Part shown: in pieces, positions 14,421-29,620 of the stretch | How positions within the stretch are numbered: position 1 is the stretch's first letter | How the letters are laid out: every line of letters begins with the position of its first letter | Assembly (NCBI GenBank): GCA_964500205.1 | Contig: CAZCNS010000003.1 | Location: 62,606-126,605 of the forward strand | Direction: 5' to 3' | Source of the DNA: an uncultured Chryseobacterium sp. | Lineage (GTDB): Bacteria > Bacteroidota > Bacteroidia > UBA10329 | DNA: 64,000 bases | The notes under the pieces: model-generated | Seen by the model: only the letters and a program-made list of their open reading frames with translations | Told to the model about the DNA's origin: nothing | The model's database searches: none | Made by a program: the position numbers and the translations under genes

Positions 14421-14591
14421 TATGTGTCTTTTTACATTATTGCCAACGGTGCGCCTAAAAGTATTGCGTTTTGAAACTACTGAGTTTTCGAGATACGGTA
14501 ACGCAGCAGAACGAAACTGAGACTGACTGACGTACCGTCCCGCGCAATAATTTTAGGCATTGTTGTGTGTAGTTGTTTCATTTCAATCCGG

Positions 14592-15317: not shown

Positions 15318-15407
15318 GTTTTATAAATAAGTCATATATGAAAGGTGCCGCTTTTATCATGGTTGTTGCGTGTACTTGGTTTGATTTCAAAAATCAAAGT
15401 ACAGGAA

Positions 15408-16262
15408 TCAATGCTGCCTTTTTTCGATTTCCATTATTTGATTTTCGAAACCACGCAGGTCAGCATGTTGCCAATTCATCAATTCAATCTGTAAGGAGTC
15501 AAATTTTAGCAACGGCCGTTGTCCAAGGACTAAAAACTTATCGGGTTTTCCATTTTCGTCATGTATCTGAATTAAGCATTCTTCAATATTTTTCTTCTCA
15601 AATTTTCGCACCAAAACTGAATACTTTGTAATGCCTTCATGATTGATATAAGGTACTGTGATTTCCACTATTGACTTGAAAATTCTTCTCGTCCCTGAGA
15701 CCGAACCACGTGCGAAATGGAAGCCTTTTGGCTTCTTCCTGTTATTCTTGTCAGACTTAGGATATAATGTGTGAACAATCTTAGTGCCTTTGTATGTCAG
15801 TAGTTTATATTTCGCTGTGCTACCGTCTTTGTGTTTATAGTGGGCGACAAACAACTCAAACTCTTCAGGACGATGGTTGTTCTCAATGTCTAAATTGTCT
15901 TCAGAATAAATGGCGTCTGCTATTCTTGCGTAATCCAGTATTGGGATTGAATCGGTTCTGAACCTACTTGGCTCTTGAAGTTTCTTTCTGGTATTTCCAG
16001 ATGCTTCATTTGAATCAATCCAATTGAAAGATTCTGACCAAAATTCATGTCGGGCATGAATATGTGTGAATCCGGTATGCTCGTTACCCTTTACGAAAAC
16101 CAGTTCCTTTACTGGCGAGATATTCCAAATTGTTTTATGTCCAGGACCAAAAAGATTAATGACATTTTGATTCTTTAATACTGGATTCAGACGAGCAAAC
16201 TCCTCAATTTCCTGAATTTCTGCCTTTGTAAGAAGGATTTCAGATGCAGCGGCCATTTCCAA
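15408..16262 (-). CDS. Hypothetical soluble protein with a His-cluster (HTGFTHIHARHEF), 284 aa
   Basis: Clean AT-rich ORF directly upstream of, and co-oriented with, the 2-TM gene. No family recognised. Confidence 0.6.
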   Translation of the reverse strand: MEMAAASEILLTKAEIQEIEEFARLNPVLKNQNVINLFGPGHKTIWNISPVKELVFVKGNEHTGFTHIHARHEFWSESFNWIDSNEASGNTRKKLQEPSRFRTDSIPILDYARIADAIYSEDNLDIENNHRPEEFELFVAHYKHKDGSTAKYKLLTYKGTKIVHTLYPKSDKNNRKKPKGFHFARGSVSGTRRIFKSIVEITVPYINHEGITKYSVLVRKFEKKNIEECLIQIHDENGKPDKFLVLGQRPLLKFDSLQIELMNWQHADLRGFENQIMEIEKRQH

Positions 16263-16616
16263 TTACACACAACGATTGGCTAAAGATACCTGGTTATCCT
16301 TAGCCGACTCTGTCGATTCAGGTTAAACGTTTGTAGTTGAGTTGATTGATGCTGAATGTCCGTTTTAGCGGACTGGTGATGTCAGGCGAATTCTTTGAGC
16401 TGGCAGGTGCGTAGATGGCGGTTGTTTTTAAGCTGGTAAGGTCGAAGAACTGTGGTACGTAGTGTGTCTGTTCTCCCTTGTCCGCGAAGTGGGGGGCAAA
16501 GCAATCTCCGAACCAATAAAGGTTGCTGTTGCTCTATCATCTCCGCATCCTATGGCTTTGTTCCTTTGGTCAGAGGCAAATCTATGACATAGAACATTAG
16601 GTTGGGCGAGGGGGGG

Positions 16617-16839: not shown

Positions 16840-19800
16840 TCACTGGAATTTACCGATGACCACGGCTACGAGATTGCAGTACACGTAGTAGCCCGTGCCG
16901 GCTCCCACGTGCCAATAGCCCTGAAAGGTGACCGTGCCATCGGCAGTGGCCCTGAAGAGGCCGGTGCTGTGCCCCCCGCTCCAGTCGGTGCCATTGGAGG
17001 TAATCCAGTTTGATGGCAGCACCCAGGTTCCCGTTCCGCTGGAATTGAGTACGCGCATGTAGGTCGTGTTGACAATGGAGTTCGAGAGGTTGCACGCGCA
17101 GTCCACTTTCACCAGGTCCTCATTCTGCACTGTGATAGTGGTACTCAGGTCCGCACCCGTGAAGACCGAGGTGGTGGAAGTAGTGGAACCCACCACGCTC
17201 GACTCGTCCGCAGCGAAAGTGGCCACCCCTCTCACTTTGCCGTTCACATCAAGCTTTGCCGTGGGTGCGGTGATGCCGATGCCGACCCTGTCGTTGGTTG
17301 CATCCACTGACAAAGTGGAGCCGTCAACATTGAAGACGTCCACACCATTGCCTGTAAAGCTGAGCTTGTTGGTGGCAGAAAGCCCAGAAACGGTCGTGGC
17401 CTGAGTAAGCGCACCTCCCAGACGGACGGTGGCCGGGGCTGTTTCCGTCAGGCCGTTCTCTACCGTGATGATTCCTGTAGGGTCGCTCCATGTCGGTGCC
17501 CCCGCCCCGTTGCTGCGCAGCAACTGACCAGATGTGCCGGCTGCGGTAAAGGCGTAGGCCGACCCTGTGCCGTAAGCCAGCCCCCCGTTTGTAGGGGCTG
17601 CGTTTGAGTTTGTTCCCCCGTTGGCGATGGGCAGTATTCCTGTTACCTCTGCCGAGGCCAGACCAATGGCTCCAGCGGTGAACCCGGAGCCGTTGCCCTT
17701 GACCGGGCCGTTGAGCGTGGTGGTCACGGCAATGGTGCCACTTCCTGTCACCGGAGAGCTTCCGACCGAGAGGCCCGATGGCATTGTGAGGCCCACGGAG
17801 GTCACCGTGCCTACGTTAGCGGTGTTGATGTTCGATGCGGTCACCACTCCGGCTGGGCTTATGGTGAGTAGGCGGTCCTGACCAGAGCCGTTCAATGTGG
17901 GAAGGGTAAAGACGCCTGCTTGCGAAATGCGCATTCGTTCTATAAACGAGTTGCTTACCGACCCGGTCTGCAATATGATGTCTCCACCGCTGTTTGCAGC
18001 ACTGAGCTGATTGGTTCCGGAGCGCAGCAGCAGGTCTCCACCTGTCGCAGTGCCAGTGAGGTTGTAGCCGGCTCCGGCCTCCAACACCAGGTCGCCTCCG
18101 GAGCGCGCGCCACTGTCAGAGGAGGCATCGCCTGCCTTGACCGACAATGCGGAGCCGTCTGAGCTGCCCACGGCTTTCTGCAGGGTGATGTTCTTTGCAC
18201 CACCGCGCGAGAGCAGTACGTTGCCGCTCACATGAAGCCGTTCCAGAGGCGCAGACTCGCCAATGCCTACATTGGCCCCATTGCCCAGCACAACGCTGTT
18301 GCTTGCGCCCACCACAGCATTGGAACCTATGGCCGTTGCGTTGGTGAGGTTGTTCACTGAGGCATCGGCATTGATGCCCAGAAAAGTGTTTTGCGACCCG
18401 GTAGTGTTGAAATCGCCCGCGGCATCGCCCATGGCGATGTTGCCACTGCCTGTGGTGTTGTTGTACAGGGCCAGATAGCCCAAGGCCACATTGCTGTTGC
18501 CCGTGGTGTTGAATAGCATGGCATCCTTGCCTATGGCGGTGTTCCGGATGCCTTGTGTATTGTCGCGCAAGGCATCCTTGCCCATAGCAGTGTTGTCGAG
18601 TCCGGTGGTATTGCTATACATGGCACCAGACCCAAGCGCACTGTTGAAGTTGCCCGTGGTATTGTTGCGCAAGGCATCCCGGCCCATGGCGGTATTGTTG
18701 GATCCTGTGGTGTTGCTGACCAACGCCAGAACGCCTATGGCCGCATTGTTGAAGCCTGATGTGTTCACACGGAGTGCATCCTTTCCAATGGCGGTGTTCT
18801 GCCCGCCTGTGGTGTTGGTGCGCAGTGCGTCTCTGCCCACGGCCGTGTTGTCATTCCCGGTCGTATTGCTCACCAATGCCTGAAAGCCCAAGGCCGCGTT
18901 ACTGCTACCTGTGGTGTTGGACAGCATGGCATCCTTACCGATGGCGGTGTTCTGCCCGCCCGTGGTATTGTCGCGCAGTGCGTCCCTGCCCGCTGCCGTG
19001 TTGTCGCTTCCTGTTGTATTGCTTTGCAAGGCCCGCGATCCGAGTGCACTGTTGAATATGCCTGTGGTATTACTGCTCATGGCATTCCTACCCACGGCCG
19101 TATTGTCATTCCCGGTGGTGTTGTTGAGCAACGCCTGAAAGCCGTTGGCCACATTGCTCACACCTGTGGTGTTCGACAGGAGAGCATCCTTGCCGATGGC
19201 GGTGTTTTGAATGCCTGTGGTGTTGGCACGCAGTGCGTCCTTGCCCACGGCCGTGTTGTCGTTCCCGGTGGTATTGCTGCGCATGGCTTCCCGTCCCATG
19301 GCGGTGTTGTTGGCCCCGGTGGTGTTGGAAAGAAGGGTATTGTAGCCCACACCGGTGCTTGAGTTGGAGGTGTTCACGTTCCCCGCCTGATAGCCGAGAA
19401 AAACCTCGCCCGTGCTGGCCACCCTTCCTGCCTTCTGGTTGTTCACGCGGATGTTGAAGGGTATATTGTCTGTGGTACCTATGAAATGTGTGCCGTCCAC
19501 TGTGCTCGCATTTCCACTGAGCGACCAAGCTTCAGCAGTGACCACTGCAGTGGGGTCTGTCCATGTCATCCTTCCGTTGGCGTCAGAGACGGGGACGAAA
19601 CCAGTGGCCTGATTGCCGTCCACCATGCGGATGTTGCCTACCACATGCAGCCTGTCGCTGGGTGCCGAGATGCCGATGCCCACATTGCCGTTCTCATTAA
19701 TGGTCAATGCAGTGTTGGTGATCCCTGTCGCATAGTCATTGGACGTGCCGAGCATCAGCTTTGACCCGAAGCCATTGCTCTGTGCAGCGATCCGAGCGAT

Positions 19801-20400
19801 GGGGTTCGTTGCATCCGCGAAAATGAAGTCCATGGCTGCAAATCCTCCATTGGTGGTGGTCCCCTCCATGCTGAACATGCCTCTTGTGCTTCCTGTGAAG
19901 CTGCCGATCTGGTTTCCATTTACATGCAACCTCGACAATGGAACCGCAGCACCTATGGCCACATTCCCGGTGCGGTTGATGGCTCCGGTGGAATTGGCGG
20001 GGCCGTTCCAAGTGGGGTCAAGCTCTGTGAAGCTGGTGAGATACCCTACGGTGGCATGGTTCCCCCAACCGAATGCGGTGTTCCAGTTGGTGATGTCCGT
20101 GTTGGTTATCCCGAACGATGGGCTGGCGGAAAATATCGGGTCTGTCTCCACCGTAGAGGCAAATGAGGTCCAGCTGCTACCGTTCCATCCTTGGAACTGC
20201 CCCAAGGAGCCATTCCATCGGATGGTGCCCGCCCCGCCCGTGGGGGCACCTGCACCGATATCGGAGCTTAGGCGAAGTCGGCCAGCAATGTCGAGTTTCT
20301 CCTGCGGGGCAGGCACGCCAACACCCACGTTCTGAGCATGGGCCGCTGTTAAAGAAAGAAGCAATGTGGACAGTAGTACAGGTCTAAAGGACATCATCAT
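16840..20400 (-). CDS. Secreted giant protein (1186 aa) with a long run of YadA-like (Hep_Hag) 7-11-residue repeats and a tail-fibre-like C-terminal region
   Basis: Signal peptide MMMSFRPVLLSTLLLSLTAAHA. There are more than 40 repeats of the form NTAIGxxALxxNTTGxxNTAxG. The C-terminal has a G(I/V)LP(I/V)ANGGT motif (GILPIANGGTNS) common in phage tail-fibre and tail-fibre-like proteins. Confidence 0.85.
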   Translation of the reverse strand: MMMSFRPVLLSTLLLSLTAAHAQNVGVGVPAPQEKLDIAGRLRLSSDIGAGAPTGGAGTIRWNGSLGQFQGWNGSSWTSFASTVETDPIFSASPSFGITNTDITNWNTAFGWGNHATVGYLTSFTELDPTWNGPANSTGAINRTGNVAIGAAVPLSRLHVNGNQIGSFTGSTRGMFSMEGTTTNGGFAAMDFIFADATNPIARIAAQSNGFGSKLMLGTSNDYATGITNTALTINENGNVGIGISAPSDRLHVVGNIRMVDGNQATGFVPVSDANGRMTWTDPTAVVTAEAWSLSGNASTVDGTHFIGTTDNIPFNIRVNNQKAGRVASTGEVFLGYQAGNVNTSNSSTGVGYNTLLSNTTGANNTAMGREAMRSNTTGNDNTAVGKDALRANTTGIQNTAIGKDALLSNTTGVSNVANGFQALLNNTTGNDNTAVGRNAMSSNTTGIFNSALGSRALQSNTTGSDNTAAGRDALRDNTTGGQNTAIGKDAMLSNTTGSSNAALGFQALVSNTTGNDNTAVGRDALRTNTTGGQNTAIGKDALRVNTSGFNNAAIGVLALVSNTTGSNNTAMGRDALRNNTTGNFNSALGSGAMYSNTTGLDNTAMGKDALRDNTQGIRNTAIGKDAMLFNTTGNSNVALGYLALYNNTTGSGNIAMGDAAGDFNTTGSQNTFLGINADASVNNLTNATAIGSNAVVGASNSVVLGNGANVGIGESAPLERLHVSGNVLLSRGGAKNITLQKAVGSSDGSALSVKAGDASSDSGARSGGDLVLEAGAGYNLTGTATGGDLLLRSGTNQLSAANSGGDIILQTGSVSNSFIERMRISQAGVFTLPTLNGSGQDRLLTISPAGVVTASNINTANVGTVTSVGLTMPSGLSVGSSPVTGSGTIAVTTTLNGPVKGNGSGFTAGAIGLASAEVTGILPIANGGTNSNAAPTNGGLAYGTGSAYAFTAAGTSGQLLRSNGAGAPTWSDPTGIITVENGLTETAPATVRLGGALTQATTVSGLSATNKLSFTGNGVDVFNVDGSTLSVDATNDRVGIGITAPTAKLDVNGKVRGVATFAADESSVVGSTTSTTSVFTGADLSTTITVQNEDLVKVDCACNLSNSIVNTTYMRVLNSSGTGTWVLPSNWITSNGTDWSGGHSTGLFRATADGTVTFQGYWHVGAGTGYYVYCNLVAVVIGKFQ

Positions 20401-21339
20401 GTGCCTAATGGTTGAGTAGAGGATGCAAATTTTACTAAAAAGTCTATGCGTACGACCTGTGGTTGATCAAAATGGTATTTTGAAAAGAAAACGTGATTGA
20501 TAGTGAGATGTGAAGTGATCACAGCTCCTTTCAGACGATGAAAGACCATGCTGCTGGAGCGATCATCTGGTCTATCGAAGCCATTGAGCATGCTATGCGT
20601 TGCAACGCATGGGCATTGAAGACCCCCGGTTCTACCCCCACATCATAGCGCTTCAAAGGGTGAAACAGTGCCGATCGAAGGTTCTGAACCCCTTTTTGGG
20701 GTGTTCTGGCCTTTTTGGCGCAGGTTCTGAGCCATTCGCTGTTTCGTGTTGGGAACATTAAAATATCCCGAAACTTTGGAGTGCGTTCTTTGAAAATCCT
20801 GACCCTCCCGCCTGTTGGTTGGATATAACCGCGAGAAGATCATGTCCTACCATCGCAAGATTATATATAACGGTCTCACGGTTATATATGTATTTCTCAA
20901 GGTTATATGTCACCAAAGAAAGTTTGGATGAAAACCTTTGATGTTTATGTCCAACATTGACAAAAATAGGTACTACCGTCCGTTTTTCAGACCCAACCAT
21001 GAGACGGAGATGTCCAACCATGGAACGGTTGGCTCACAACAAGACGGGGAGAGAAGGAATCAATAGACGCATAAATCATTGTTTAATAATTAAATAAACG
21101 TCCATGACAGCAACTTGAAGCACCTTGCCGCCCGTTTGTGCAGACACAGACCCGGTAAGTACAACCGACAGTTCATTTACAATTCAAGTTCACTTGACGA
21201 TTAAATAAAACTTAAAAGCCATGTCAACAACACCAGACGGCATACCCCTGAATATGACGGAGTTCTATGCTTTCATTTAAGACCTCTCTACCGGCATGGT
21301 GGCCGCTGTGGTGGTAGGGTGAGGCCCTGCCAGTGTGCG

Positions 21340-21560
21340 ATCTCCGACCTGCTTGTCCGTCCGTCCGCCTCAGGCGGACGGACAGGTGGGCGGGCGGGAT
21401 TTTTTTGATTGTTGAGCGAAGCGAAATCCCGCCCAAGCGGGAAGCGAAGCGAAATCCCGCGACTGCGGGAAGATTGCTGATTGCTAATTGCTGATTGACG
21501 AGGGAGGGATTGACAATTAAAAGTTACCAATTACCAATTACCAATTAACAATTGGGGGTG
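21340..21560. repeat. Third locus of the dispersed composite repeat, with a GC hairpin and T-run
   Basis: Hairpin CCGTCCGTCCGCC-TCAG-GCGGACGGACAGG, then GGGCGGGCGGGATTTTTTT, then AGCGAAGCGAAATCCCGC…GCGAAATCCCGCGACTGCGGGA, then (GATTGCT)x3-4 and (CCAATTA)x3. Confidence 0.6.
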
Positions 21561-21665
21561 GAGGGGAGGTGGAAGAGGGGAGAGGATGATTTTTAATGTT
21601 GTTCTGTTTGTTTTGCAACCGACATAAAAGGGAAGTTAGTAAGTTCACCCCCACGAAACTGACGT

Positions 21666-23174
21666 ATGAACTTCGACCAGACCTTCAAGAACATTGATGA
21701 CGTGCTCCGCAGGGAGACCGACTCCGAACTCGACTACATAGAGCAGACCTCGTGGATACTCTTCCTTCGCTACTTGGACGAACTGGAGCAGGAGCGCGCA
21801 GATGAGGCCGAGCTGCGGGGCAACGAATACCGTTTCCTCCTGGCCGAGGAATACCGCTGGGGCGCATGGGCCATGCCCAAGGATGCCAAAGGGGCGTACG
21901 ATTTCAAGTCCGCCCTGACGGGGCCCGACCTCATCGAGTTTGTCAATGGCAAGCTGCTGCCCTACCTGCGCACCTTCAAAGAGGCGCACAGCGACAACCC
22001 CCGCACCCTCGAATACAAGGTGGGCGAGATATTCGGAGAGCTGAAGAACAAGCTGGGCAGCGGCTACAACCTGCGCGAGATACTGGAGGCCATAGACACC
22101 CTGCCCCTCAAGAGCAGCAAGGACCGCCACGAGCTCAGCTTCCTCTACGAGAGCCGCATCCGCAACATGGGCAACGCGGGCCGCAACGGAGGCCAGTACT
22201 ACACCCCCCGCCCCCTCGTGCGCGCCATGATTCAGGTGACCGACCCCCGCATAGGCGAGACCGTCTATGATGGGGCCGCAGGCTCTGCGGGCTTCCTCTG
22301 CGAGGCATACGAGTACATGGCCCCGCAGACCGAGCGCCACCCCACGCTATCAAGCACCGAGGCCCTGCGCGTGCTGCAAGAGGAGACCCTCTATGGCAAG
22401 GAGGTGAAGAACCTCGCCTACATCATCGGCATCATGAACATGATACTGCATGGCGTGGAGGCCCCCAACCTCATCCATATCAACACGCTGGCCGCACACG
22501 ACAGTCAGGTGCAGGAGCGCGACCGCTATGATGTCATCCTCGCCAATCCGCCCTTTGGCAGCAAGGAGCGGCCCGAGGTGCAGCAGGCATTCGCCATCAA
22601 GACCAGCGAGACGGCCTTCCTCTTCCTTGAGCACTTCATCCGCTATCTGAAGACGGGAGGCCGCGCGGCCATCGTCATCAAGAACACCTTTCTGAGTAAC
22701 ACCGACAATGCGGCCGTGAGCCTGCGCAAGCACCTGCTGGAGACCTGCAACCTCCACACCGTGCTCGACATGCCGCAGGGCACCTTCCTCGGGGCGGGCG
22801 TCAAGACCGTCATCCTCTTCTTCACCAAGGGCGAGCCTACCCGCAACATCTGGTACTACCAGCTGAACCCCGGCCGCAACATGGGCAAGACCAACCCCCT
22901 CAACGACAGCGACCTGGCCGAGTTCATCGAACTCCAGAAGACCCGCCCAGAGACCGAGTGCAGTTGGAAAGTTGGGGTCACTTCGAGTGACGCTGACGAA
23001 GGAGGCGTTGTATCGAGAAGCCCCAACGCCACCAACGGCTTCGACCTCTCCGTAAAGAACCCCAACACCCCCGAAGAGGCACCCCTGCGCAGCCCACAGG
23101 AGATACTGGACGAGATGACCGCCTTGGACGAAGAGACCAAGGAACTGTTGGACGGGATAAGGGAGTTGCTATGA
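21666..23174 (+). CDS. hsdM: Type I restriction-modification N6-adenine DNA methyltransferase subunit
   Basis: HsdM N-terminal domain and catalytic motif IV NPPF (…VILANPPFGSKERPE…). It overlaps the specificity subunit by ATGA. Confidence 0.95.
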   Translation: MNFDQTFKNIDDVLRRETDSELDYIEQTSWILFLRYLDELEQERADEAELRGNEYRFLLAEEYRWGAWAMPKDAKGAYDFKSALTGPDLIEFVNGKLLPYLRTFKEAHSDNPRTLEYKVGEIFGELKNKLGSGYNLREILEAIDTLPLKSSKDRHELSFLYESRIRNMGNAGRNGGQYYTPRPLVRAMIQVTDPRIGETVYDGAAGSAGFLCEAYEYMAPQTERHPTLSSTEALRVLQEETLYGKEVKNLAYIIGIMNMILHGVEAPNLIHINTLAAHDSQVQERDRYDVILANPPFGSKERPEVQQAFAIKTSETAFLFLEHFIRYLKTGGRAAIVIKNTFLSNTDNAAVSLRKHLLETCNLHTVLDMPQGTFLGAGVKTVILFFTKGEPTRNIWYYQLNPGRNMGKTNPLNDSDLAEFIELQKTRPETECSWKVGVTSSDADEGGVVSRSPNATNGFDLSVKNPNTPEEAPLRSPQEILDEMTALDEETKELLDGIRELL

Positions 23175-24322
23175 GTACTAACAAATGGACTCCATTCCGA
23201 AATGTCGGAAATGTTCAGTCGGGAGCTGGATTTCCAATTGTTTATCAAGGCCTAACGGAAGGTGAATACCCCTTCTACAAGGTTGGAGACATGAATTCAG
23301 AAGGCAACGAGATATTCATGTCTCAAGCCAACCATTACATATCTGATGAAGTTCGCAGGGAACTTGGAGCTAAAGTAATTCCACCAGACAGTATAATCTT
23401 CCCCAAAGTTGGCGGGGCCATATTGACTAACAAAAAAAGGATTACAACTCTTCCATGCTGTATTGACAACAACTTGATGTCAATCTGGGTCGACCCAGCA
23501 GCATATTCCAAAAAGTACTTCTACTATTTCTTCAATTCGATTGATTTATTTGAGTTGTCTAATAAAGCTGGGTTGCCATCAATTACGCAAACAGCTCTTT
23601 ACGAACTGAAAGTTCCCATCCCACCCCTCCCCGAACAGGAGCGCATCGTTGCCAAGTTGGATGCCGCCTTTGCGGCCATCGATAAGGCCAAGGCCAATGT
23701 GGAGCGCAACCTGCACAATGCCAAGGAGCTTTTTCAGAGCAAGCTCAATGAGGTGTTTGAAAATTTGGAATCACAATATGAAAGGACTCCTATAGCTTCT
23801 GTTTGCAAAGAGATATTTGCTGGAGGTGATGCCCCACGTGAAAACTTCTCCGAAGCCAGAACAGATAAATTTCACATTCCAATAATTGCCAATGCCGTTA
23901 AAGACCATGGTCTTTACGGATATACAGATTTGGTGAGAGTTTCGGAGCCATCAATTACCATAGCAGCACGCGGAAGTGGTACTGGACATACTGAAATCAG
24001 GTTGGAGCCATTTTTCCCAATTGTCAGGTTAATTGTCCTGATTCCAAAGAGGGAGATGATTGACCTTTCCTTTTTCTGTTACTCAATCAAAAATTTGGAG
24101 ATTTTGAGAAGCGGTTCTGCAATACCGCAGTTGACTGTGCCCATGATTAAAGGTTACTCGCTTGCTGTGCCACCTTTGGAAACTCAAGAAGTGTTAGTTG
24201 AAATGCTTAACTCGTTGGAGGGCAGTTTGCAGTCCCTTGAAACCTATTATACCCGCAAACTAACAGAATTGGAAACCTTGAAGAAGTCGGTTTTGGAGCG
24301 GGCTTTTAGGGGGGAGATTTGA
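23171..24322 (+). CDS. hsdS: Type I R-M specificity subunit (two target-recognition domains)
   Basis: AT-rich variable TRDs separated by the conserved central helix (…LPPLPEQERIVAKLDAAFAAIDKAKANVERNLHNAKELFQSKLNEVF…), and the conserved distal helix …LETQEVLVEMLNSLEGSLQSLETYYTRKLTELETLKKSVLERAFRGEI*. Confidence 0.9.
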   Translation: MSTNKWTPFRNVGNVQSGAGFPIVYQGLTEGEYPFYKVGDMNSEGNEIFMSQANHYISDEVRRELGAKVIPPDSIIFPKVGGAILTNKKRITTLPCCIDNNLMSIWVDPAAYSKKYFYYFFNSIDLFELSNKAGLPSITQTALYELKVPIPPLPEQERIVAKLDAAFAAIDKAKANVERNLHNAKELFQSKLNEVFENLESQYERTPIASVCKEIFAGGDAPRENFSEARTDKFHIPIIANAVKDHGLYGYTDLVRVSEPSITIAARGSGTGHTEIRLEPFFPIVRLIVLIPKREMIDLSFFCYSIKNLEILRSGSAIPQLTVPMIKGYSLAVPPLETQEVLVEMLNSLEGSLQSLETYYTRKLTELETLKKSVLERAFRGEI

Positions 24323-24359
24323 AAAGAGAAAATGACATAGTGTTCATTTGCAGCCTCTT

Positions 24360-24463
24360 TGTGGGACACGTAGGACATAGCGTGGGACGTGGCGGAGTGG
24401 GAGCCTCCATCGTGCAGTTCCACGGAGCGTCCCAAGCGTCCCACAGCAAATAGCCCACAGCCT
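24360..24463. mobile_element. MITE/PATE-like about 100-bp element, copy A (terminal inverted repeats TGTGGGAC…GTCCCACA)
   Basis: GTGGGACACGTAGGACATAGCGTGGGACGTGGCGGAGTGG … CACGGAGCGTCCCAAGCGTCCCACAGC. Arms are mutually complementary (CGTGGGACG vs CGTCCCACG). Near-identical copies lie at 24543-24640 and 26324-26433. Confidence 0.5.
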
Positions 24464-24524
24464 CAAACTAACAGAATTGGAAACCTTGAAGTAGTCGGTT
24501 TTGGAGCGGGCTTTTAGGGGGGAG
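24464..24524 (+). pseudogene. Orphan duplicate of the hsdS 3' end (…KLTELETLK*SVLERAFRGEL), copy 2 of 3
   Basis: A roughly 60-bp direct repeat of 24262-24322 with an internal stop (TAG). A third copy at 24653-24716 runs into the KAP NTPase reading frame. Confidence 0.6.
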
Positions 24525-24542
24525 CTATGAAAATAAAAATGG

Positions 24543-24640
24543 AGGACACGTAGGGCATAGCGTGGGAAGTGGCGGAGTGGTGGTCACCATCGTGCAGTCC
24601 CACGGAACGTCCCAAGCGTCCCACAGCATGAAGCCCACAG
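24543..24640. mobile_element. MITE/PATE-like element, copy B
   Basis: GGACACGTAGGGCATAGCGTGGGAAGTGGCGGAGTGG…CACGGAACGTCCCAAGCGTCCCACAGC. Confidence 0.5.
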
Positions 24641-24736
24641 CAAACCCACTACACCCGCAAACTAACAGAACTTGAAACCTTGAAGAAGTCGGTTTTGGAG
24701 CGGGCTTGTAGGGGGGGATATGAAACAGGAAGCGAT

Positions 24737-26116
24737 ATGAAAGGAAGACACAATGACTTGATAATCGACCTCAATGAACCTTTCAAAGAGTGCAAACTCA
24801 ATCGAAAGCGGAATGCGGAGATTCTAACCGAGGTGGTGCAGAGGTACAAGGATGGTTTTGTCCTTGCGATAAACAACCCTTGGGGTGCGGGTAAGACCAC
24901 CTTCGTGAAGATGTGGCAGCAGCACTTGGAGAATGAACATTTCCGTACCGTCTATTTTAACGCTTGGGAGAACGACCTTGGCAATGCCATTTTCCCTGCC
25001 CTGCTCTCTGAATTGGAAGGAATTGACCGCGCACATAGAGATGGCGAGAATCAACAGAATCCAAGGTTTGCTGACGTATTAGACAAGGCCGCCCCGATTG
25101 CAAAATCTTTAATGCCCGCAGTGGCAAAGATTCTGTTTGACAGATTTGCAGGCAAGGGTGCTGCATCGGAACTAGCAGAGGCAATTGCAGCGGGTGGTGC
25201 AGAGGTACTGGCAGAAGGCATCAAAGACTACAGGGCACAAAAGCAAGGACTTGGTGAGTTCAAAAAATCGCTAACCGAGTTTGTGGAGACCTACACTTCT
25301 TATGGCAGGCCCATCATCTTCATTATAGACGAGCTTGACCGCTGCCGTCCCGACTATGCGGTCTCCGTGCTAGAACACATCAAGCACCTTTTCTCTATAC
25401 GCAGAGTAGTTTTCGTGCTTTCCATAGACAAGGTGCAATTGGGTCACGCCATTTGTGGGGTGTATGGCAGTGACAACTTCGATTCCAATGAGTACTTGAG
25501 AAGGTTTATTGATTTGGAGTACAATCTGCCCGTTCCGAACTACACTGAAATCACGAAATACTTTTTCAACTACTTCGGATTTGAAGATGTTGCATTGCTA
25601 AAAAACAAACCAAATGCATGGTTTTCTGATGAGGAACTGTTTGACTTTATGGGGCAACGCTTCAGACATCTGAATTGGAATATTCGAAGAATAGAGAAAC
25701 TGATGGCACGCTGCAGAGTTACCATGAGTCTTGTTGCACCAGATGAATTTCATCTCATGCCGTTCTACTTGTACCTATCTTTCCTTTACGAATTAGATGG
25801 TGAATTCGCTGGCAAGCTGACATCCGGTAAACTCACTATTACAGAAGTCAACTCCAAATTGAAGAGTCCTGAACTGCTGTTTGGGGCGAGTTTTGAAGCA
25901 CCATTTTGGCAGAAGTGCTTCGCATTTATTTTATTATCTATATCCGATAATTTTACTGACATCTCGAAACTAAATCCAATAAATGCTATCAAACAACAAC
26001 CGCTATCTGCGTTTTCTTCAGTTGTACATGCGGGATCATATGGTCAGCTATCGCTTCCCGGAATAGTTGAAATAGGCAGGAGGTTAAGACATTCCTATAG
26101 TTTTGAAGCAGCTTAA
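24737..26116 (+). CDS. KAP-family P-loop NTPase inserted between hsdS and hsdR (ORF in track begins at TTG 24680 inside the hsdS-end repeat; ATG at 24737 preferred)
   Basis: Walker A NNPWGAGKTTFVKMW, the KAP-typical YFNAWEND motif, and Walker B IIFIIDELDRCRPDY. AT-rich relative to hsdM and hsdR. Confidence 0.85.
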   Translation: MKGRHNDLIIDLNEPFKECKLNRKRNAEILTEVVQRYKDGFVLAINNPWGAGKTTFVKMWQQHLENEHFRTVYFNAWENDLGNAIFPALLSELEGIDRAHRDGENQQNPRFADVLDKAAPIAKSLMPAVAKILFDRFAGKGAASELAEAIAAGGAEVLAEGIKDYRAQKQGLGEFKKSLTEFVETYTSYGRPIIFIIDELDRCRPDYAVSVLEHIKHLFSIRRVVFVLSIDKVQLGHAICGVYGSDNFDSNEYLRRFIDLEYNLPVPNYTEITKYFFNYFGFEDVALLKNKPNAWFSDEELFDFMGQRFRHLNWNIRRIEKLMARCRVTMSLVAPDEFHLMPFYLYLSFLYELDGEFAGKLTSGKLTITEVNSKLKSPELLFGASFEAPFWQKCFAFILLSISDNFTDISKLNPINAIKQQPLSAFSSVVHAGSYGQLSLPGIVEIGRRLRHSYSFEAA

Positions 26117-26118
26117 TC

Positions 26119-26178
26119 AATGAACGAATCCGAAACCCGCGCCCATTTCATCGCCCCCGCCCTGATAGCCAAGGGATA
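26119..26178 (+). pseudogene. Truncated, diverged copy of the hsdR 5' end (MNESETRAHFIAPALIAKG*)
   Basis: 20 codons, about 80% identical to the true hsdR start at 27077 (VNESNTRAHYIDPALIAKGW…), with TAG where hsdR has TGG. Confidence 0.5.
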
Positions 26179-26323
26179 GGGGCTAATAACAGCCATTGAA
26201 CCGAGCGGTTGAAAACCCCTTTCAGGAGGGCAGCATGTTCAGGTTCCGCTGTTCCACGGCACGGCCCATAAACCCCACAGAAAACCCCACCCGTAGAAAC
26301 CATGGCGCACTCACCGTCTTTTT

Positions 26324-26433
26324 TGTGGGACACGTAGGACATGACGTGGGACGTGGCGGAGTGGCAAGCACCTTCGGCCGTCCTGCGGAGCGTCCCATGC
26401 AGTCCCACAAGTCCCACAGCACAAAGCCCACAG
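26324..26433. mobile_element. MITE/PATE-like element, copy C
   Basis: TGTGGGACACGTAGGACATGACGTGGGACGTGGCGGAGTGG…GGAGCGTCCCATGCAGTCCCACAAGTCCCACAGC. Confidence 0.5.
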
Positions 26434-26462
26434 AACATCCAACCAACCTAACATATTGACAA

Positions 26463-27047
26463 TTGCACTACATTAGCCCCATGGCAACGGAGAATCCAGG
26501 CGGTTTTATCCCAAAGAATGGGGGTTATAGAAACCTCTATGCCTTCCAGAAGGCCGAGATCATTTATGATGGCACGGTCTATTTCACCAAACGGTTCTTC
26601 GGGAAATACGACCGCACTGTAGATCAGATGGTGCAGGCTGCCCGCAGCGGCAAGCAGAACATAGGCGAGGGCAGCGTGGTATCGGCCACCTCCAAACAGT
26701 TGGAGATCAACCTGACCAACGTGGCCCGCGCCAGCTTGGAAGAACTCAAGATGGACTACGAGGATTTCCTGCGCACCAACAAGCTGCCCATCTGGGACAA
26801 GAACCACCGCCTTGCCCTGCGGGTGCGCGAATTGAACCGTACGCCCAATGCCGATTACAGTACTTTTCAGAAGGCCATAGAGCACGAGAGCCCTGAGATC
26901 TGTGCCAACACGCTGCTCACCCTCATCAACATCGCCATTTACCTGCTCAAGAACCAGTTGGCCACCCTCGAAAAGGAGTTCCTTGAAGAAGGGGGTATCC
27001 GCGAACGAATGACCCGCGCCCGCATTGCCAAACGCAAGGGCGGGTAG
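26463..27047 (+). CDS. Four-helix-bundle protein (23S rRNA intervening-sequence protein / Avd-like family) with a C-terminal extension; alternative start MATENPGG at 26481
   Basis: YRNLYAFQKAEIIYDGTVYFTKRF…DRTVDQMVQAARSGKQNIGEGS…KQLEINLTNVARASLEEL matches the family hallmark (…W/FQKA…L…IY…T…FP…E…L…Q…RAA.SI..NIAEG…F…A.GSL.EL). It sits between a MITE-like copy and hsdR. Confidence 0.65.
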   Translation: MHYISPMATENPGGFIPKNGGYRNLYAFQKAEIIYDGTVYFTKRFFGKYDRTVDQMVQAARSGKQNIGEGSVVSATSKQLEINLTNVARASLEELKMDYEDFLRTNKLPIWDKNHRLALRVRELNRTPNADYSTFQKAIEHESPEICANTLLTLINIAIYLLKNQLATLEKEFLEEGGIRERMTRARIAKRKGG

Positions 27048-27076
27048 CTGCCAGCAAATGAAACCGCCCCGTTGAC

Positions 27077-29620
27077 GTGAACGAATCCAACACCCGCGCG
27101 CATTACATAGACCCTGCCCTTATAGCCAAGGGATGGGGTTTCAATGCGCCCATGAACGAAGGACGCATACGCACGGAGCATTTCATCACCAATGGCCGCA
27201 TATTGGGCCAGAGCGTAGGCAGCAAGCGATCGAAGGATGGGCTGATACACGGTGAGCGGCTCAAGGCCGACTATGTACTGCAATACCGCAACCGCAACAT
27301 TGGTATTATAGAGGCCAAGGCTGATACGCAGGACTTCACCGAAGGCGTGGGGCAGGCCAAGGAGTACGCCACCCGCCTACAGGTGCGCTTTGCCTTTAGC
27401 ACCAATGGCAAACGCATCTATTGCATCGACATGCAGGAGGGCACCGAGAGCGAGGTGCGCGAATACCCCACACCCGATGAGCTGTGGGCCATGACGTTTG
27501 ACGCAGATTCGGAGTGTCACACTAAGCGGAGTCGAAGTGCAAACGAGGAATCTGGGGCTTCCAACGGACTCCATCCCGAATCTTCGGGACTCAGAATGAC
27601 ACCCCCCGACCACGGCATCAACTGGATGGAACGGTTCAGCGCAGTGCCCTTCGAGGACCGTGGCGGCACATGGCAGCCGCGCTACTATCAGGAGAACGCC
27701 ATCACCAACGCCCTCGATGCCATGGCCGAGGGCCGTGACCGCATCCTGCTCACCCTCGCCACCGGCACAGGCAAGACGGCCATCGCCTTTCAGATATGCT
27801 GGAAGCTGTATCAAAGCCGTTGGAACCTGAGGCGCGATGGCAGCGGCCTGCCGCGCATCCTTTTCCTGGCCGACCGCAACGTGCTGGCCGATCAGGCATT
27901 CAATGCGTTTAACCTCTCTTTTGAGGAGAACGCACTGGTGCGCATCACCCCCGAGGAGATACGCAAGGCAGGCAAGGTGCCGACCAGCGGAAGCCTGTTC
28001 TTCACCATCTTCCAGACCTTCATGACAGGCGGCAATACCGATGCAGGCGAGACCGAGGACATGGAAGCGGGCAAGGCCCATTTCTGGGGCTACCCGAAGG
28101 ACTTCTTCGACCTTATCATCATTGACGAGTGCCACCGTGCAGGGGCGAAGGACAACAGCTCATGGCGGGCCATCATGGAGTATTTCAAGCCTGCGGTGCA
28201 GATAGGTCTCACCGCCACGCCCAAGCGCGATGTGAATGGCGACACCTACCGCTATTTCGGTGACCCCGTGTATGTCTATTCGCTCAAAGAAGGCATCAAC
28301 GATGGTTTCCTCACGCCTTTCCGCTACAAGGAGATGAGCACCACGGGGGATGAGTACACCTACACCGAGGGCGACATCGTGATGGAAGGAGAGGTGGAAT
28401 ATGGCCGCACTTACACGCAGGAGGAACAGAACCGTGTAATCATCCTGGAGGATGTAGAGCGTTTTCGTGTGCAGAAGCTGCTCGAAAGCATAGACCAGCG
28501 GCACAAGACCATCGTGTTTTGCAATGACCAGCTGCACGCCCTCGCGGTGCGCAACCTCATCAATCAGCTCTCAACCAGTCGCAACCCGCACTACTGCCAC
28601 CGTGTCACGGCAGACGATGGCAAGCAGGGCGAACAGTACCTCAAGCACTTTCAGGACAACCAGAGCAGCATCCCCACAATCCTTACCACCTCGCAGAAAC
28701 TGAGCACGGGTGTGGACGCACCAGAGGTGCGCAACATCGTGCTGATGCGCGTGGTGCGCAGCATGGTGGAGTTCAAGCAGATCATAGGGCGCGGCACACG
28801 CCTTCATGATGGCAAGAGCTACTTCACGGTCTATGATTTCTATTGGCGGTTACACACCCACTTCGAGGATCCCGAATGGGACGGCCCGCCCGAAGAGCCT
28901 GAACCCCCAGTGGAACGGCCGTTGACCGACCCTTGTCTGAACTGTGGTCAGAGGCGCTGCATCTGCAACCAGCCTCCGCCAGAGCTGTGCGAACTCTGCG
29001 CCAAACATCCCTGCGAGTGCGAAGGCGAACCACGCCCCAAGAAGATACGCATCAAGATGGCCGATGGCAGCGTGCGTGATCTGCAGGGCATGACCCGCAC
29101 CAGATACTACGGCAAGAATGGACAGCTTGTGACGGGCGATGCCTTCATTCAGGAACTCTTTGGCGACCTGCCTTCCTTCTTCTCCGATGAGGAGAAACTA
29201 AGGGAGATATGGAGCACGCCCGACACCCGCAGGAAACTGCTGGAAGAGATGAAGGAGAAGGGCTACAGCGAGGAACAGCTCAAGGAATTGCAAGAGCTGG
29301 TGCATGGCCGCGACAGCGACCTGTATGATGTGCTCTCCTACGTGGCCTATCACCGCGACCTTGTGCCGCGCTCCGACCGCGCAGACCGCGCCAAGGTGCA
29401 TTTCGCCACCTACGACCCCAAGCAGCAGGAGTTCCTCAACTTCGTGCTGGAGCAGTACGTGCGTTCAGGCGTCCACGAACTGGACGACCAGAAACTGCCC
29501 CAGCTCCTCGACCTCAAATACAAGAGCGTGGCCGATGCCAAGGCGCAGCTTGGCTCTCCTAACACCATTCGAGACACCTTCATCGGCTTTCAGAAATGGC
29601 TGTATGGGGAGGTGGGGTAG
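27077..29620 (+). CDS. hsdR: Type I restriction enzyme R subunit (GTG start), with a Cys-rich C-terminal insert
   Basis: N-terminal NESNTRAHYIDPAL. SF2 helicase motifs LTLATGTGKT, IIIDECHRAG, GLTATP, QIIGRGTRL. C-terminal DUF3387-like region. CxxC x4 cluster CLNCGQRRCICNQ…CELCAKHPCEC. Confidence 0.95.
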   Translation: MNESNTRAHYIDPALIAKGWGFNAPMNEGRIRTEHFITNGRILGQSVGSKRSKDGLIHGERLKADYVLQYRNRNIGIIEAKADTQDFTEGVGQAKEYATRLQVRFAFSTNGKRIYCIDMQEGTESEVREYPTPDELWAMTFDADSECHTKRSRSANEESGASNGLHPESSGLRMTPPDHGINWMERFSAVPFEDRGGTWQPRYYQENAITNALDAMAEGRDRILLTLATGTGKTAIAFQICWKLYQSRWNLRRDGSGLPRILFLADRNVLADQAFNAFNLSFEENALVRITPEEIRKAGKVPTSGSLFFTIFQTFMTGGNTDAGETEDMEAGKAHFWGYPKDFFDLIIIDECHRAGAKDNSSWRAIMEYFKPAVQIGLTATPKRDVNGDTYRYFGDPVYVYSLKEGINDGFLTPFRYKEMSTTGDEYTYTEGDIVMEGEVEYGRTYTQEEQNRVIILEDVERFRVQKLLESIDQRHKTIVFCNDQLHALAVRNLINQLSTSRNPHYCHRVTADDGKQGEQYLKHFQDNQSSIPTILTTSQKLSTGVDAPEVRNIVLMRVVRSMVEFKQIIGRGTRLHDGKSYFTVYDFYWRLHTHFEDPEWDGPPEEPEPPVERPLTDPCLNCGQRRCICNQPPPELCELCAKHPCECEGEPRPKKIRIKMADGSVRDLQGMTRTRYYGKNGQLVTGDAFIQELFGDLPSFFSDEEKLREIWSTPDTRRKLLEEMKEKGYSEEQLKELQELVHGRDSDLYDVLSYVAYHRDLVPRSDRADRAKVHFATYDPKQQEFLNFVLEQYVRSGVHELDDQKLPQLLDLKYKSVADAKAQLGSPNTIRDTFIGFQKWLYGEVG

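What the first reader, a model, noticed from the sequence alone, without database searches (positions are those of the whole stretch)
24737..26116. KAP-family NTPase in the PrrC position: candidate R-M-guarded latent effector
Walker A (GAGKTT), the KAP-signature YFNAWEND and Walker B (DELDRC) are intact. The roughly 250-aa C-terminal half has no recognisable motif and is very AT-rich. KAP NTPases are recurrent in defence islands but have no established mechanism. Its placement between the S and R subunits of a Type I system is exactly where the anticodon nuclease PrrC (also an NTPase-effector fusion) sits. By analogy, the unknown C-terminal domain could be a toxic effector released when phage anti-restriction proteins hit the R-M complex.
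Basis: inference. Interest (0 to 1): 0.7.

Follow-up and report, generated by a model that had tools for sequence, protein, structure and literature searches.

The report
KAP NTPase cassette inside Type I operon
This is an intact KAP-family ATPase gene of an already catalogued but untested candidate anti-phage family, sitting as an imported gene cassette between the S and R genes of a Type I restriction system; it most likely works on its own rather than as a toxin held in check by the restriction enzyme.

Summary
Window 24737-26116 (+) encodes an intact 459-aa KAP P-loop NTPase between hsdS and hsdR of a complete Type IB (EcoAI-family) system.

- The KAP domain covers about residues 27-332, not just the N-terminal half.
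- The remaining roughly 125 residues are a variable all-helical domain with no nuclease or pore fold.
- The protein belongs to PADLOC candidate family PDC-S20. That family was catalogued through "guilt-by-embedding" and has not been tested.
- The best match among solved structures is the RADAR ring ATPase RdrA.

About a fifth to a quarter of bacterial relatives sit in the same hsdS-KAP-hsdR slot, often with overlapping stop and start codons. The rest have no conserved neighbour. None of the 80 viral-contig relatives checked is next to hsd genes. Embedded and solitary members interleave on the tree. That pattern fits an autonomous single-gene defence module that repeatedly lodges in Type I operons, not an obligate PrrC-like guarded toxin.

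An unexpected extra: the gene is bracketed by a spare copy of the hsdS 3' end and a truncated hsdR 5' start. Related metagenome loci carry arrays of such bracketed cassettes. This points to cassette exchange by recombination within the conserved hsd gene ends.

The parts
21666..23174 (+). hsdM, Type I methyltransferase subunit (502 aa)
   Evidence: Pfam N6_Mtase 7.5e-54 and HsdM_N. PADLOC MTase_I 1.2e-144. GC3 is 0.85, host-like.
23171..24322 (+). hsdS, specificity subunit (383 aa, two target-recognition domains). Its start overlaps hsdM by 4 nt.
   Evidence: Pfam Methylase_S 3.8e-28 in two stretches. PADLOC Specificity_I. GC3 is 0.45, unlike hsdM and hsdR.
24253..24331 (+). hsdS 3' end, copy 1 (the native end of hsdS). 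It is the reference copy of a 79-nt direct repeat.
   Evidence: Repeat family D2; alignment A6.
24364..24461 (+). 98-nt hairpin-forming repeat, copy 1
   Evidence: Repeat family D1. RNA fold -49.9 kcal/mol, z -2.3. All three copies in the window lie within this locus.
24461..24539 (+). hsdS 3' end, copy 2 (92% identical to copy 1). It carries an internal stop codon, so it is a non-coding scar.
24544..24641 (+). 98-nt hairpin-forming repeat, copy 2 (89% identical). Its apical stem is kept through changes on both sides (GGGAG/CUCC becomes GGUGG/CACC).
24655..24733 (+). hsdS 3' end, copy 3 (82% identical), directly abutting the KAP start. It keeps the hsdS-stop / Shine-Dalgarno / ATG spacing seen in the related contig L081.
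24737..26116 (+). KAP-family P-loop NTPase, 459 aa, PADLOC family PDC-S20. Residues 1-26: conserved N-terminal peptide. Residues 27-84 and 191-290: NTPase core. Residues 85-190: helical hairpin insert. Residues 291-335: lid containing invariant R317. Residues 336-459: variable helical domain.
26120..26179 (+). Truncated copy of the hsdR 5' end. It forms a mini-ORF, MNESETRAHFIAPALIAKG*, that starts 3 nt after the KAP stop codon and is 85% identical to the true hsdR start.
   Evidence: Repeat family D4; sequence; motif scan.
26248..26444 (+). Hairpin repeat copy 3 (26328-25425 region: 26328-26425) plus a partial copy upstream of it
   Evidence: Repeat families D1, D3 and D7. RNA fold -54.5 kcal/mol, z -2.4.
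26481..27047 (+). Four-helix-bundle protein (23S rRNA intervening-sequence protein family) with the TIGR04258 suffix domain. It is a second embedded cassette.
   Evidence: Pfam 23S_rRNA_IVP, 27.5 bits, which is below the Pfam cut-off of 33.8. NCBIfam TIGR04258 3.3e-22 and TIGR02436, both above their cut-offs. 92% aa identity to the equivalent gene in L083 and L084.
27077..29620 (+). hsdR, Type IB (EcoAI/FtnUII family) restriction subunit (847 aa, GTG start)
   Evidence: NCBIfam NF046051, 740 bits against a cut-off of 550. Pfam ResIII, EcoEI_R_C and HSDR_N_2.

Best explanation
The gene encodes a soluble, self-contained KAP-family NTPase of PADLOC candidate family PDC-S20. It has an AAA+/RdrA-like fold.

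My reading of how it works (inferred, not shown): it is an NTP-driven oligomeric switch, probably a ring.
- Its two fast-evolving helical modules are the hairpin insert at residues 85-190 and the C-terminal domain at about 336-459. I take these to be the surfaces that recognise a phage-derived cue.
- Its output would come from the NTPase assembly itself, not from a fused nuclease or pore domain.

It acts as an independent second layer of defence. It is probably co-transcribed with the Type IB hsd operon, but it does not depend on the restriction enzyme to hold it in check.

It reached this locus as a cassette still carrying the 3' end of a donor hsdS in front and the 5' end of a donor hsdR behind. 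This implies import by recombination between related hsdS-KAP-hsdR operons.

Shown here: family membership, fold class, intact motifs, genomic distribution and cassette scars. Inferred: anti-phage function, ring assembly, the sensor role of the variable modules and co-transcription.
For: Identity:
- Pfam KAP_NTPase 3e-36.
- PADLOC PDC-S20 7e-128 over residues 1-377.
- More than 3,200 homologues, the listed ones about 460-480 aa long, with invariant Walker A, Walker B and R317.

Fold:
- The AlphaFold2 model has pLDDT 80.8.
- The best Foldseek hits in the PDB are the heptameric RADAR ATPase RdrA (TM 0.45-0.51 normalised to the query), followed by ORC/Cdc6 AAA+ proteins.
- No transmembrane segment: the maximum 19-residue hydropathy is 1.53.

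Autonomy:
- About 60 of about 80 bacterial species loci have no hsd neighbour and no conserved neighbour at all.
- 314 IMG/VR viral contigs encode relatives. None of the best 80 is near hsd genes.
- One viral copy lies 4 kb from a tape-measure gene.
- The window protein matches phrog_8614 at 1e-61.
- Embedded and solitary members interleave on a neighbour-joining tree.
- No residue is specific to the embedded members.

Variable modules:
- Pairwise identity is about 0.70 in the core, 0.37 in the insert, and falls from 0.38 to 0.23 along the C-terminus.

Cassette import:
- hsdS 3' copies and a pseudo-hsdR 5' copy flank the gene.
- The same scars occur in L081, L083 and L019.
- GC3 is 0.47 for KAP and 0.45 for hsdS, against 0.85 for hsdM and 0.75 for hsdR.

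Operon:
- No terminator-like site lies on the + strand between hsdM and the end of hsdR.

Precedents:
- KAP NTPases with uncharacterised C-terminal regions protect against phage, need Walker B, and did not behave as abortive infection (PMC13552941).
- The genes embedded in the V. cholerae Type I cluster defend on their own (PMC11411939).
Against: - No member of PDC-S20 has been tested as far as the searched literature shows. The PDC set is described as untested.
- No output activity can be named from sequence or fold.
- The recurrent hsdS-KAP-hsdR arrangement occurs in distant taxa and often with 4-nt stop/start overlaps (L003, L025, L027, L032, L082). That is tighter than mere island clustering and leaves room for functional coupling.
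- Ring assembly is extrapolated from a moderate structural match (TM about 0.5) to RdrA.
- The last 80 residues of the window protein are only about 9% identical to the family and are modelled at pLDDT 54-82. A partly decayed C-terminus cannot be excluded.
- The neighbour-joining tree has long branches and no support values.
Confidence: 0.58

Rival explanations
1. PrrC-like guard. When embedded, the KAP protein is held inactive by the HsdMS or HsdR complex. It is released as a growth-arresting effector when a phage anti-restriction protein disables the Type I enzyme.
For: - It occupies the slot between hsdS and hsdR, where PrrC sits in its Type IC system (the Type IC embedding is from PMC12707154; the exact prrB/prrD slot is my own knowledge).
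- About 17-20 of about 80 bacterial relatives are in hsd operons, almost always directly after hsdS and often with overlapping stop and start codons.
- Guarding of R-M by embedded or linked effectors has precedents: PrrC, and Ronin, where HsdMS masks RonA.
Against: - Most relatives have no hsd neighbour, and none of 80 viral copies does.
- Embedded members are not a clade and carry no signature residues.
- PrrC is almost exclusively embedded, and this family is not.
- No ABC ATPase fold, no PrrC hit in PADLOC, and no family-conserved HEPN-like Rx4-6H motif.
- The C-terminus has no nuclease or pore fold.
- In this window the gene is separated from both hsdS and hsdR by scars and another gene.
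Confidence: 0.15
2. Accessory factor of the restriction enzyme. The NTPase would modulate assembly, loading, restriction alleviation or turnover of the Type IB complex, rather than defend by itself.
For: - Operon embedding with translational coupling in several taxa.
- An AAA+/ORC-like loader-type fold.
- Association mainly with one Type I family, EcoAI-like HsdR.
Against: - The majority of solitary and phage-borne copies would have no client.
- In this sample most KAP-containing Type IB loci carry KAP as one of several interchangeable inserts, alongside Schlafen-like, DarTG and PD-(D/E)xK genes.
- The related locus L083 has the same operon without KAP.
Confidence: 0.07
3. Selfish or phage-derived passenger. 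The gene serves the mobile cassette or a prophage, for example in superinfection exclusion, addiction or a phage life-cycle function. Its presence in the hsd operon would be a by-product of recombination at a hotspot.
For: - 314 viral contigs carry relatives, and PHROG family 8614 exists for them.
- Cassette scars show hitch-hiking by recombination.
- KAP has foreign base composition.
Against: - Superinfection exclusion by a prophage is itself anti-phage defence, so this rival overlaps the best explanation.
- The ORF and all catalytic motifs are intact in a chromosomal operon, which argues for selection in the host.
- No integrase or transposase lies in the window's hsd locus.
Confidence: 0.08
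4. Decaying remnant. The gene is intact in frame but no longer functional, as suggested by its divergent tail and its uncoupling from hsdS.
For: - The last 80 residues are about 9% identical to the family, with a deletion of roughly 19 columns relative to the homologues.
- 415 nt of scars separate the gene from hsdS.
Against: - A full-length ORF with every invariant family residue retained.
- Its own Shine-Dalgarno-like sequence.
- No alternative-frame match to homologues' C-termini.
- The C-terminus is the most variable part across the whole family.
Confidence: 0.04

Closest known systems
PADLOC phage-defence candidate PDC-S20 (single-gene KAP NTPase; PDC set from Payne et al. 2024, 'guilt-by-embedding')
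   Same: - HMM PDLC04959 matches residues 1-377 at E 7e-128.
- Same length class (profiles of about 450-464 positions), and a single gene.
- Found both embedded in Type I R-M and solitary, as the PDC discovery procedure describes.
   Different: - The last roughly 80 residues fall outside the profile match, and the window protein's tail is unusually divergent.
- The closest relative found is only 62% identical.
- The family is an untested candidate, so membership says nothing about mechanism.
PrrC anticodon nuclease in the EcoprrI Type IC locus
   Same: - An NTPase-containing accessory gene embedded in a Type I R-M locus. That PrrC sits specifically between hsdS and hsdR is my own knowledge.
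- Part of a layered-defence logic.
   Different: - PrrC has an ABC-type ATPase plus a C-terminal anticodon nuclease. Here the fold is KAP/AAA+-like with an all-helical C-terminus that shows no nuclease match.
- No PrrC hit in PADLOC.
- The host system is Type IB, not Type IC.
- PrrC is almost exclusively embedded, whereas this family is mostly solitary.
RdrA, the ring ATPase of the RADAR defence system
   Same: - Best structural match among solved structures: Foldseek E 1e-5 and TM about 0.45-0.51 normalised to the query.
- Both are defence-associated P-loop ATPases with helical extensions.
   Different: - About 14% sequence identity, and RdrA is about 830-850 aa against 459 aa here.
- No adenosine deaminase (RdrB) was seen among neighbours in the window or among the 25 most frequent families in relatives' neighbours.
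- No RdrA hit in PADLOC.
PifA (F-plasmid T7 exclusion) and QatA (QatABCD), both KAP NTPases in known defence systems
   Same: They share the KAP NTPase core. PADLOC gives PifA 1e-22 over residues 37-276 and QatA 2e-15.
   Different: - Only the NTPase core aligns, against profiles of 593-720 positions.
- NCBIfam QatA scores 48 bits against a cut-off of 600.
- No QatBCD genes lie nearby.
Experimentally validated KAP NTPase defence proteins with unknown C-terminal regions (EF_KAP and metagenomic relatives, PLoS Biol 2026, PMC13552941)
   Same: - A KAP NTPase followed by a region with no known domain.
- Defence there needs Walker B and the C-terminal region.
   Different: - EF_KAP is modelled with two transmembrane helices and a 322-aa extra region. 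The window protein has no transmembrane segment and only about 125 variable residues.
- Sequence relatedness between the two was not tested here.
Ronin (HsdMS decoy with the RonA effector)
   Same: An accessory gene tightly linked to hsdS and hsdM, and a conceptual precedent for R-M-masked effectors.
   Different: - RonA is a 61-aa membrane peptide, and Ronin lacks hsdR.
- Here hsdR is intact and the accessory protein is a soluble 459-aa NTPase.

Membership tests
KAP family P-loop NTPase (Pfam PF07693) | Profile match above the curated gathering score | tested here: met
   125.5 bits against a cut-off of 20, E 3.3e-36, covering profile positions 5-292 of 293.
KAP family P-loop NTPase (Pfam PF07693) | Walker A GxxGxGKT and Walker B hhhhDE(L)DRC, with a long insert between them | tested here: met
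   WGAGKTT (residues 49-55), FIIDELDRC (195-203) and a helical insert at 85-190. All sit on invariant family columns.
KAP family P-loop NTPase (Pfam PF07693) | Transmembrane helices inserted in the NTPase domain (present in many members; not obligatory, from my knowledge of Aravind et al. 2004) | tested here: not met
   The maximum 19-residue Kyte-Doolittle hydropathy is 1.53, and that peak lies in a core beta-strand. The insert is an amphipathic helical hairpin.
PADLOC PDC-S20 | Match to a PDC-S20 HMM as a single-gene system | tested here: met
   PDLC04959 at E 7.4e-128 and three further PDC-S20 HMMs at 1e-40 to 3e-33. Solitary relatives have no conserved partner gene.
PADLOC PDC-S20 | Demonstrated anti-phage activity | not testable with these tools
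   The PDC systems are described as 145 untested candidates. No paper in the library mentions PDC-S20.
PrrC-type R-M-guarded anticodon nuclease | ABC-type ATPase N-domain | tested here: not met
   No PrrC model among the PADLOC hits at E <= 0.01. The fold search returns RdrA and ORC/Cdc6 AAA+ proteins, not ABC ATPases. PrrC is classed as an ABC ATPase.
PrrC-type R-M-guarded anticodon nuclease | C-terminal nuclease domain (all-alpha, HEPN-like; from my knowledge) | tested here: not met
PrrC-type R-M-guarded anticodon nuclease | Embedded in a Type I hsd locus (between hsdS and hsdR, from my knowledge) | tested here: met
   hsdS 23171-24322, KAP 24737-26116, hsdR 27077-29620. The host system is Type IB rather than Type IC.
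PrrC-type R-M-guarded anticodon nuclease | Near-obligate linkage to R-M across the family | tested here: not met
   About 17-20 of about 80 bacterial loci and 0 of 80 viral loci are hsd-linked. PrrC is almost exclusively embedded.
PrrC-type R-M-guarded anticodon nuclease | Latent toxicity masked by the R-M complex and released by anti-restriction proteins | not testable with these tools
   This needs expression, toxicity and interaction experiments.
RADAR (RdrA/RdrB) | RdrA ATPase paired with an RdrB adenosine deaminase | tested here: not met
   Structural resemblance only, with TM about 0.5 and 14% identity. No PADLOC RdrA hit. No deaminase among the window genes scanned or among the listed families in relatives' neighbours.
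QatABCD (QatA) | Equivalog-level match to QatA, with QatBCD neighbours | tested here: not met
   NCBIfam NF041923 scores 48.4 bits against a cut-off of 600. The neighbours are hsd genes and a four-helix-bundle gene.
Type IB (EcoAI-family) restriction-modification system (the host operon) | HsdR equivalog match, together with HsdM and a two-domain HsdS in one operon | tested here: met
   NF046051 scores 740.2 bits against a cut-off of 550. N6_Mtase plus HsdM_N, and Methylase_S in two stretches. No + strand terminator-like site within the operon.

The most novel reading that the evidence does not exclude
In this lineage of Type IB systems the hsdS-hsdR junction may work as a recombinase-free gene-cassette platform.

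- Each accessory gene (KAP, the four-helix-bundle gene, small unknown ORFs, even an IS200-like transposase gene) carries the last 50-80 nt of hsdS in front and the first 45-60 nt of hsdR behind.
- Cassettes are strung together by a conserved in-frame hsdR5'::hsdS3' linker mini-ORF.
- That linker reproduces the native stop/start spacings, which could preserve translational coupling along the array (an inference from the spacings, not tested).

On this reading, KAP and other defence genes are swapped between operons by homologous recombination within these conserved gene ends. That would explain how genes become 'embedded' in R-M systems.
Probability: 0.35. Interest if true: 0.6.

Novelty: new member of a known kind. 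Interest (0 to 1): 0.42.

Why it matters
KAP NTPases are widespread in defence contexts, yet only a few have been shown to protect against phage and none has a clear mechanism. This locus offers a compact, soluble, single-gene member. It occurs naturally in three settings: embedded in Type I R-M, solitary, and phage-borne. That makes the question "guard of R-M or autonomous sensor?" directly testable with a handful of constructs.

The flanking scars also give a concrete sequence-level route by which defence genes become embedded inside restriction operons. Published surveys have described the embedding phenomenon. The papers read here did not explain how the genes get there.

Tried and rejected
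- Rfam scan of 20300-27200 at E <= 1 found nothing, so the hairpin repeats match no curated RNA family.
- A profile search of the PDB by sequence found nothing meaningful; the best E-value was 0.05.
- The afdb50 fold library was unavailable.
- I looked for a HEPN-like Rx4-6H motif in the C-terminus. The only candidates (RFRH, RRLRH) have the wrong spacing and are not conserved in the family.
- I tested whether the divergent tail comes from a frameshift. tblastn of homologues' C-termini found no alternative-frame match.
- I tested for transmembrane segments and found none.
- I tested whether hsd-embedded KAPs form a specialised subfamily. They are not a clade and have no signature column after multiple-testing correction.
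- I considered an hsdS phase-variation shufflon as the source of the hsdS 3' repeats. I rejected it because the copies are direct, about 79 nt long, lack target-recognition domains, and no recombinase is nearby.
- I considered integron attC sites for the hairpins. I rejected this because there are no RYYYAAC/GTTRRRY cores and no integrase. A REP-like element is more likely, given an IS200-like (Y1_Tnp) gene in the related array L083.
- The source organism could not be identified. The exact protein has no contig on record and carries no source name.
- Self-similarity scans of 17 other hsd-embedded loci found a scar only in L019, so the scar architecture is lineage-restricted in this sample.
Full report
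**1. What is there**

The ORF at 24737-26116 (+) is real and intact. It has an ATG start preceded by an AGGAAG Shine-Dalgarno-like sequence, a TAA stop, and encodes 459 aa.
- GAGKTT, residues 50-55
- YFNAWEND, residues 73-80
- DELDRC, residues 198-203

All three fall on invariant columns of a 119-sequence family alignment.

Pfam KAP_NTPase matches at E 3e-36, 125.5 bits against a cut-off of 20. The match spans roughly residues 27-332 of the 459-aa protein. So the claim that the C-terminal 250 residues carry no recognisable motif is wrong. Only the last roughly 125 residues lie outside the domain model.

The neighbours are:
- hsdM, 21666-23174
- hsdS, 23171-24322
- a four-helix-bundle gene, 26481-27047
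- hsdR, 27077-29620, an EcoAI/FtnUII-family (Type IB) subunit scoring 740 bits against a cut-off of 550

No terminator-like site lies on the + strand across this stretch. Genes further out on both sides are housekeeping.

**2. What family it belongs to**

PADLOC places the protein in candidate family PDC-S20 at E 7e-128 over residues 1-377. Weaker, core-only matches go to PifA and QatA. NCBIfam QatA is far below its cut-off.

The PDC families come from Payne et al. 2024. That study nominated 145 untested candidates because they occur embedded in BREX, DISARM or Type I R-M systems.

More than 3,200 homologues were found. The listed ones are mostly about 460-480 aa and, where named, mainly from Bacteroidota. 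The closest is 62% identical.

**3. Structure**

With the family alignment, AlphaFold2 gives a confident model: pLDDT 80.8, pTM 0.81. Its parts are:
- a P-loop core
- a long helical hairpin inserted between Walker A and Walker B, residues 85-190
- an all-helical C-terminal region

The best solved-structure matches are the heptameric RADAR ATPase RdrA (TM 0.45-0.51 normalised to the query), then ORC/Cdc6 AAA+ proteins.

Further checks:
- There is no transmembrane segment.
- There is no family-conserved HEPN-type motif.
- Invariant R317 sits in the first lid helices, where AAA+ proteins carry an arginine that senses nucleotide. This last point is an inference from the fold class.
- Family-wide pairwise identity is about 0.70 in the core, 0.37 in the insert, and falls from 0.38 to 0.23 along the C-terminus.

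The insert and the tail are therefore the fast-evolving surfaces.

**4. Is it tied to restriction-modification?**

I fetched 80 loci from species-representative genomes and mapped hsd genes with iterated profiles.
- About 17-20 loci have the KAP gene inside or next to a Type I system.
- Thirteen of these are EcoAI-like operons with the order hsdM-hsdS-KAP-(other genes)-hsdR.
- In several the genes overlap by 4 nt (hsdS/KAP in L003, L025, L027, L038; KAP/hsdR in L032) or are separated by 1-4 nt (KAP/hsdR in L013, L027, L038).
- A 54%-identical metagenomic relative also overlaps its hsdS.
- The association is clearly non-random.

However, the remaining roughly 60 loci have no hsd neighbour. Pfam counts over their two upstream and two downstream genes show no recurrent partner. 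The neighbours are housekeeping genes plus scattered defence-type ATPases and SIR2.

IMG/VR holds 314 viral contigs encoding relatives. None of the best 80 lies near hsd genes. One copy lies 4 kb from a tape-measure gene. The window protein matches the same PHROG family, 8614, at 1e-61.

On a neighbour-joining tree the embedded and solitary members interleave. No alignment column distinguishes embedded members after multiple-testing correction.

PrrC, in contrast, is reported as almost exclusively embedded in Type I systems. A toxin that relies on R-M to mask it would not be expected to be mostly solitary or phage-borne.

**5. How the gene got here**

Directly upstream of the KAP start is a third copy of the last 79 nt of hsdS (24655-24733, 82% identical to the native end). 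Two further units lie between hsdS and KAP, each made of an hsdS 3' end plus a 98-nt hairpin repeat.

Three nucleotides after the KAP stop, a mini-ORF MNESETRAHFIAPALIAKG* (26120-26179) reproduces the first 19 codons of hsdR at 85% nucleotide identity.

The same architecture occurs elsewhere:
- **L081**, a sequencing-run contig with a 51%-identical KAP. It has the hsdS 3' end in front of the gene. About 300 nt downstream it has an in-frame hsdR5'::hsdS3' fusion mini-ORF.
- **L083**, a metagenome contig found with the hsdS 3' motif. It has the layout: hsdS | 132-aa ORF | hairpins | four-helix-bundle gene (92% identical to the window's) | hsdR 5' fragment | 165-aa ORF | hsdR5'::hsdS3' linker with the same junction point as L081 | 124-aa ORF | hsdS 3' fragment | IS200-like transposase | hsdR. 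It contains no KAP.
- **L019** (Penaeicola). It has a 28-nt hsdR 5' fragment directly before its KAP gene.

Base composition agrees with import. GC3 is 0.47 for KAP and 0.45 for hsdS, against 0.85 for hsdM, 0.75 for hsdR and 0.75 for the four-helix-bundle gene.

My reading is that accessory genes move between related hsd operons by recombination within the conserved hsdS 3' and hsdR 5' ends, and that arrays build up with these ends as linkers. The scars are shown. The mechanism is inferred.

Other KAP-containing Type IB operons carry different inserts: Schlafen-like ATPases, DarT plus a macro-domain protein, PD-(D/E)xK nucleases and a Bro-N protein. This fits a general insertion hotspot.

**6. 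Mechanism and verdict**

The best-supported explanation (about 0.58) is an autonomous single-gene KAP NTPase defence module that happens to be carried in, and probably co-transcribed with, a Type IB operon as a second layer. I infer an NTP-driven oligomeric switch whose variable helical insert and tail recognise a phage cue.

Published precedents fit this:
- KAP NTPases with unknown C-terminal regions protect against phage in a Walker-B-dependent way and did not behave as abortive infection.
- The gene pair embedded in the Vibrio cholerae Type I cluster works independently of the restriction enzyme.

The PrrC-like guard model is not excluded (about 0.15), because the tight hsdS-KAP-hsdR coupling recurs in distant taxa. 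It fails three of the four membership features that could be tested here. The remaining rivals are an R-M accessory factor, a selfish or phage-derived passenger, and a decaying remnant; all three are less likely.

**7. Novelty**

The gene is a new, rather divergent member of a known but untested candidate family. The embedding phenomenon is published. The cassette scars and linker mini-ORFs were not found in the papers searched. They are the most interesting by-product, but in this sample they are restricted to the window's lineage plus L019.

Noticed in passing
window 24364-24461, 24544-24641, 26328-26425 (plus a partial copy at 26248-26291): A 98-nt GC-rich repeat that folds into a long imperfect hairpin (-45 to -54 kcal/mol, z about -2.3). 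The apical stem is kept through changes on both sides between copies 1 and 2. All three copies in the 64-kb window lie inside the hsd locus. There is no Rfam match. Related copies flank the four-helix-bundle gene in L083 and L084, and L083's array also holds an IS200-like (Y1_Tnp) gene, so this may be a REP-like element.
   Followed up: partly
window 26481-27047 (+): A four-helix-bundle protein (23S rRNA intervening-sequence protein family) with the TIGR04258 suffix domain is a second embedded gene between KAP and hsdR. It is 92% identical at the protein level to the equivalent gene in two metagenome contigs (L083, L084) that lack KAP. Its role in Type I operons is unknown.
   Followed up: partly
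L081:1733-1819; L083 (reverse strand) at about 7858-7952 and 8450-8529: Mini-ORFs of 26-28 codons made of the first 14-16 codons of HsdR. Two of them (one in L081, one in L083) are fused in frame to the last roughly 14 codons of HsdS, with the same junction point in two independent contigs. They sit between accessory ORFs and reproduce the native stop/start spacings.
   Followed up: partly
window 16840-20400 (-): A 1186-aa ORF divergent from the hsd operon has no Pfam, NCBIfam or PADLOC hit. It matches PHROG 'virion structural protein' and 'tail spike protein' families at E 8e-76 to 3e-55, in several stretches. It may be a repeat-rich surface or phage-derived protein.
   Followed up: no
window 14000-16300: A low-GC patch (0.38 against 0.56 for the window) holds two ORFs (14592-15317 and 15408-16262, both on the - strand) with no hit in Pfam, PADLOC or PHROGs. 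They lie next to a glyoxalase-family gene. This is probably horizontally acquired DNA.
   Followed up: no
window 21666-29620: There is a sharp split in third-position GC within one operon: hsdM 0.85, hsdR 0.75 and the four-helix-bundle gene 0.75, against hsdS 0.45 and KAP 0.47. This suggests that the specificity subunit and KAP are recent imports into an older resident operon.
   Followed up: partly
L003:9439-10884, L026:9847-11298, L078:9587-11470, L040:6626-8364, L019:6480-7957, L002:5851-6699: Other Type I operons that contain a KAP gene also embed other genes: Schlafen AlbA_2 plus HATPase_c_4 proteins (three loci), a DarT / macro-domain pair, PDDEXK_3 and NucS-like nucleases, and a Bro-N protein. 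This indicates a shared insertion hotspot.
   Followed up: partly
L085-L164 (IMG/VR), e.g. L090:6001-7416: 314 predicted viral contigs encode relatives of this KAP family (PHROG 8614, function unknown). Many come from the same few metagenome samples. In L090 the gene lies about 4 kb upstream of a tail tape-measure gene on the same strand.
   Followed up: partly
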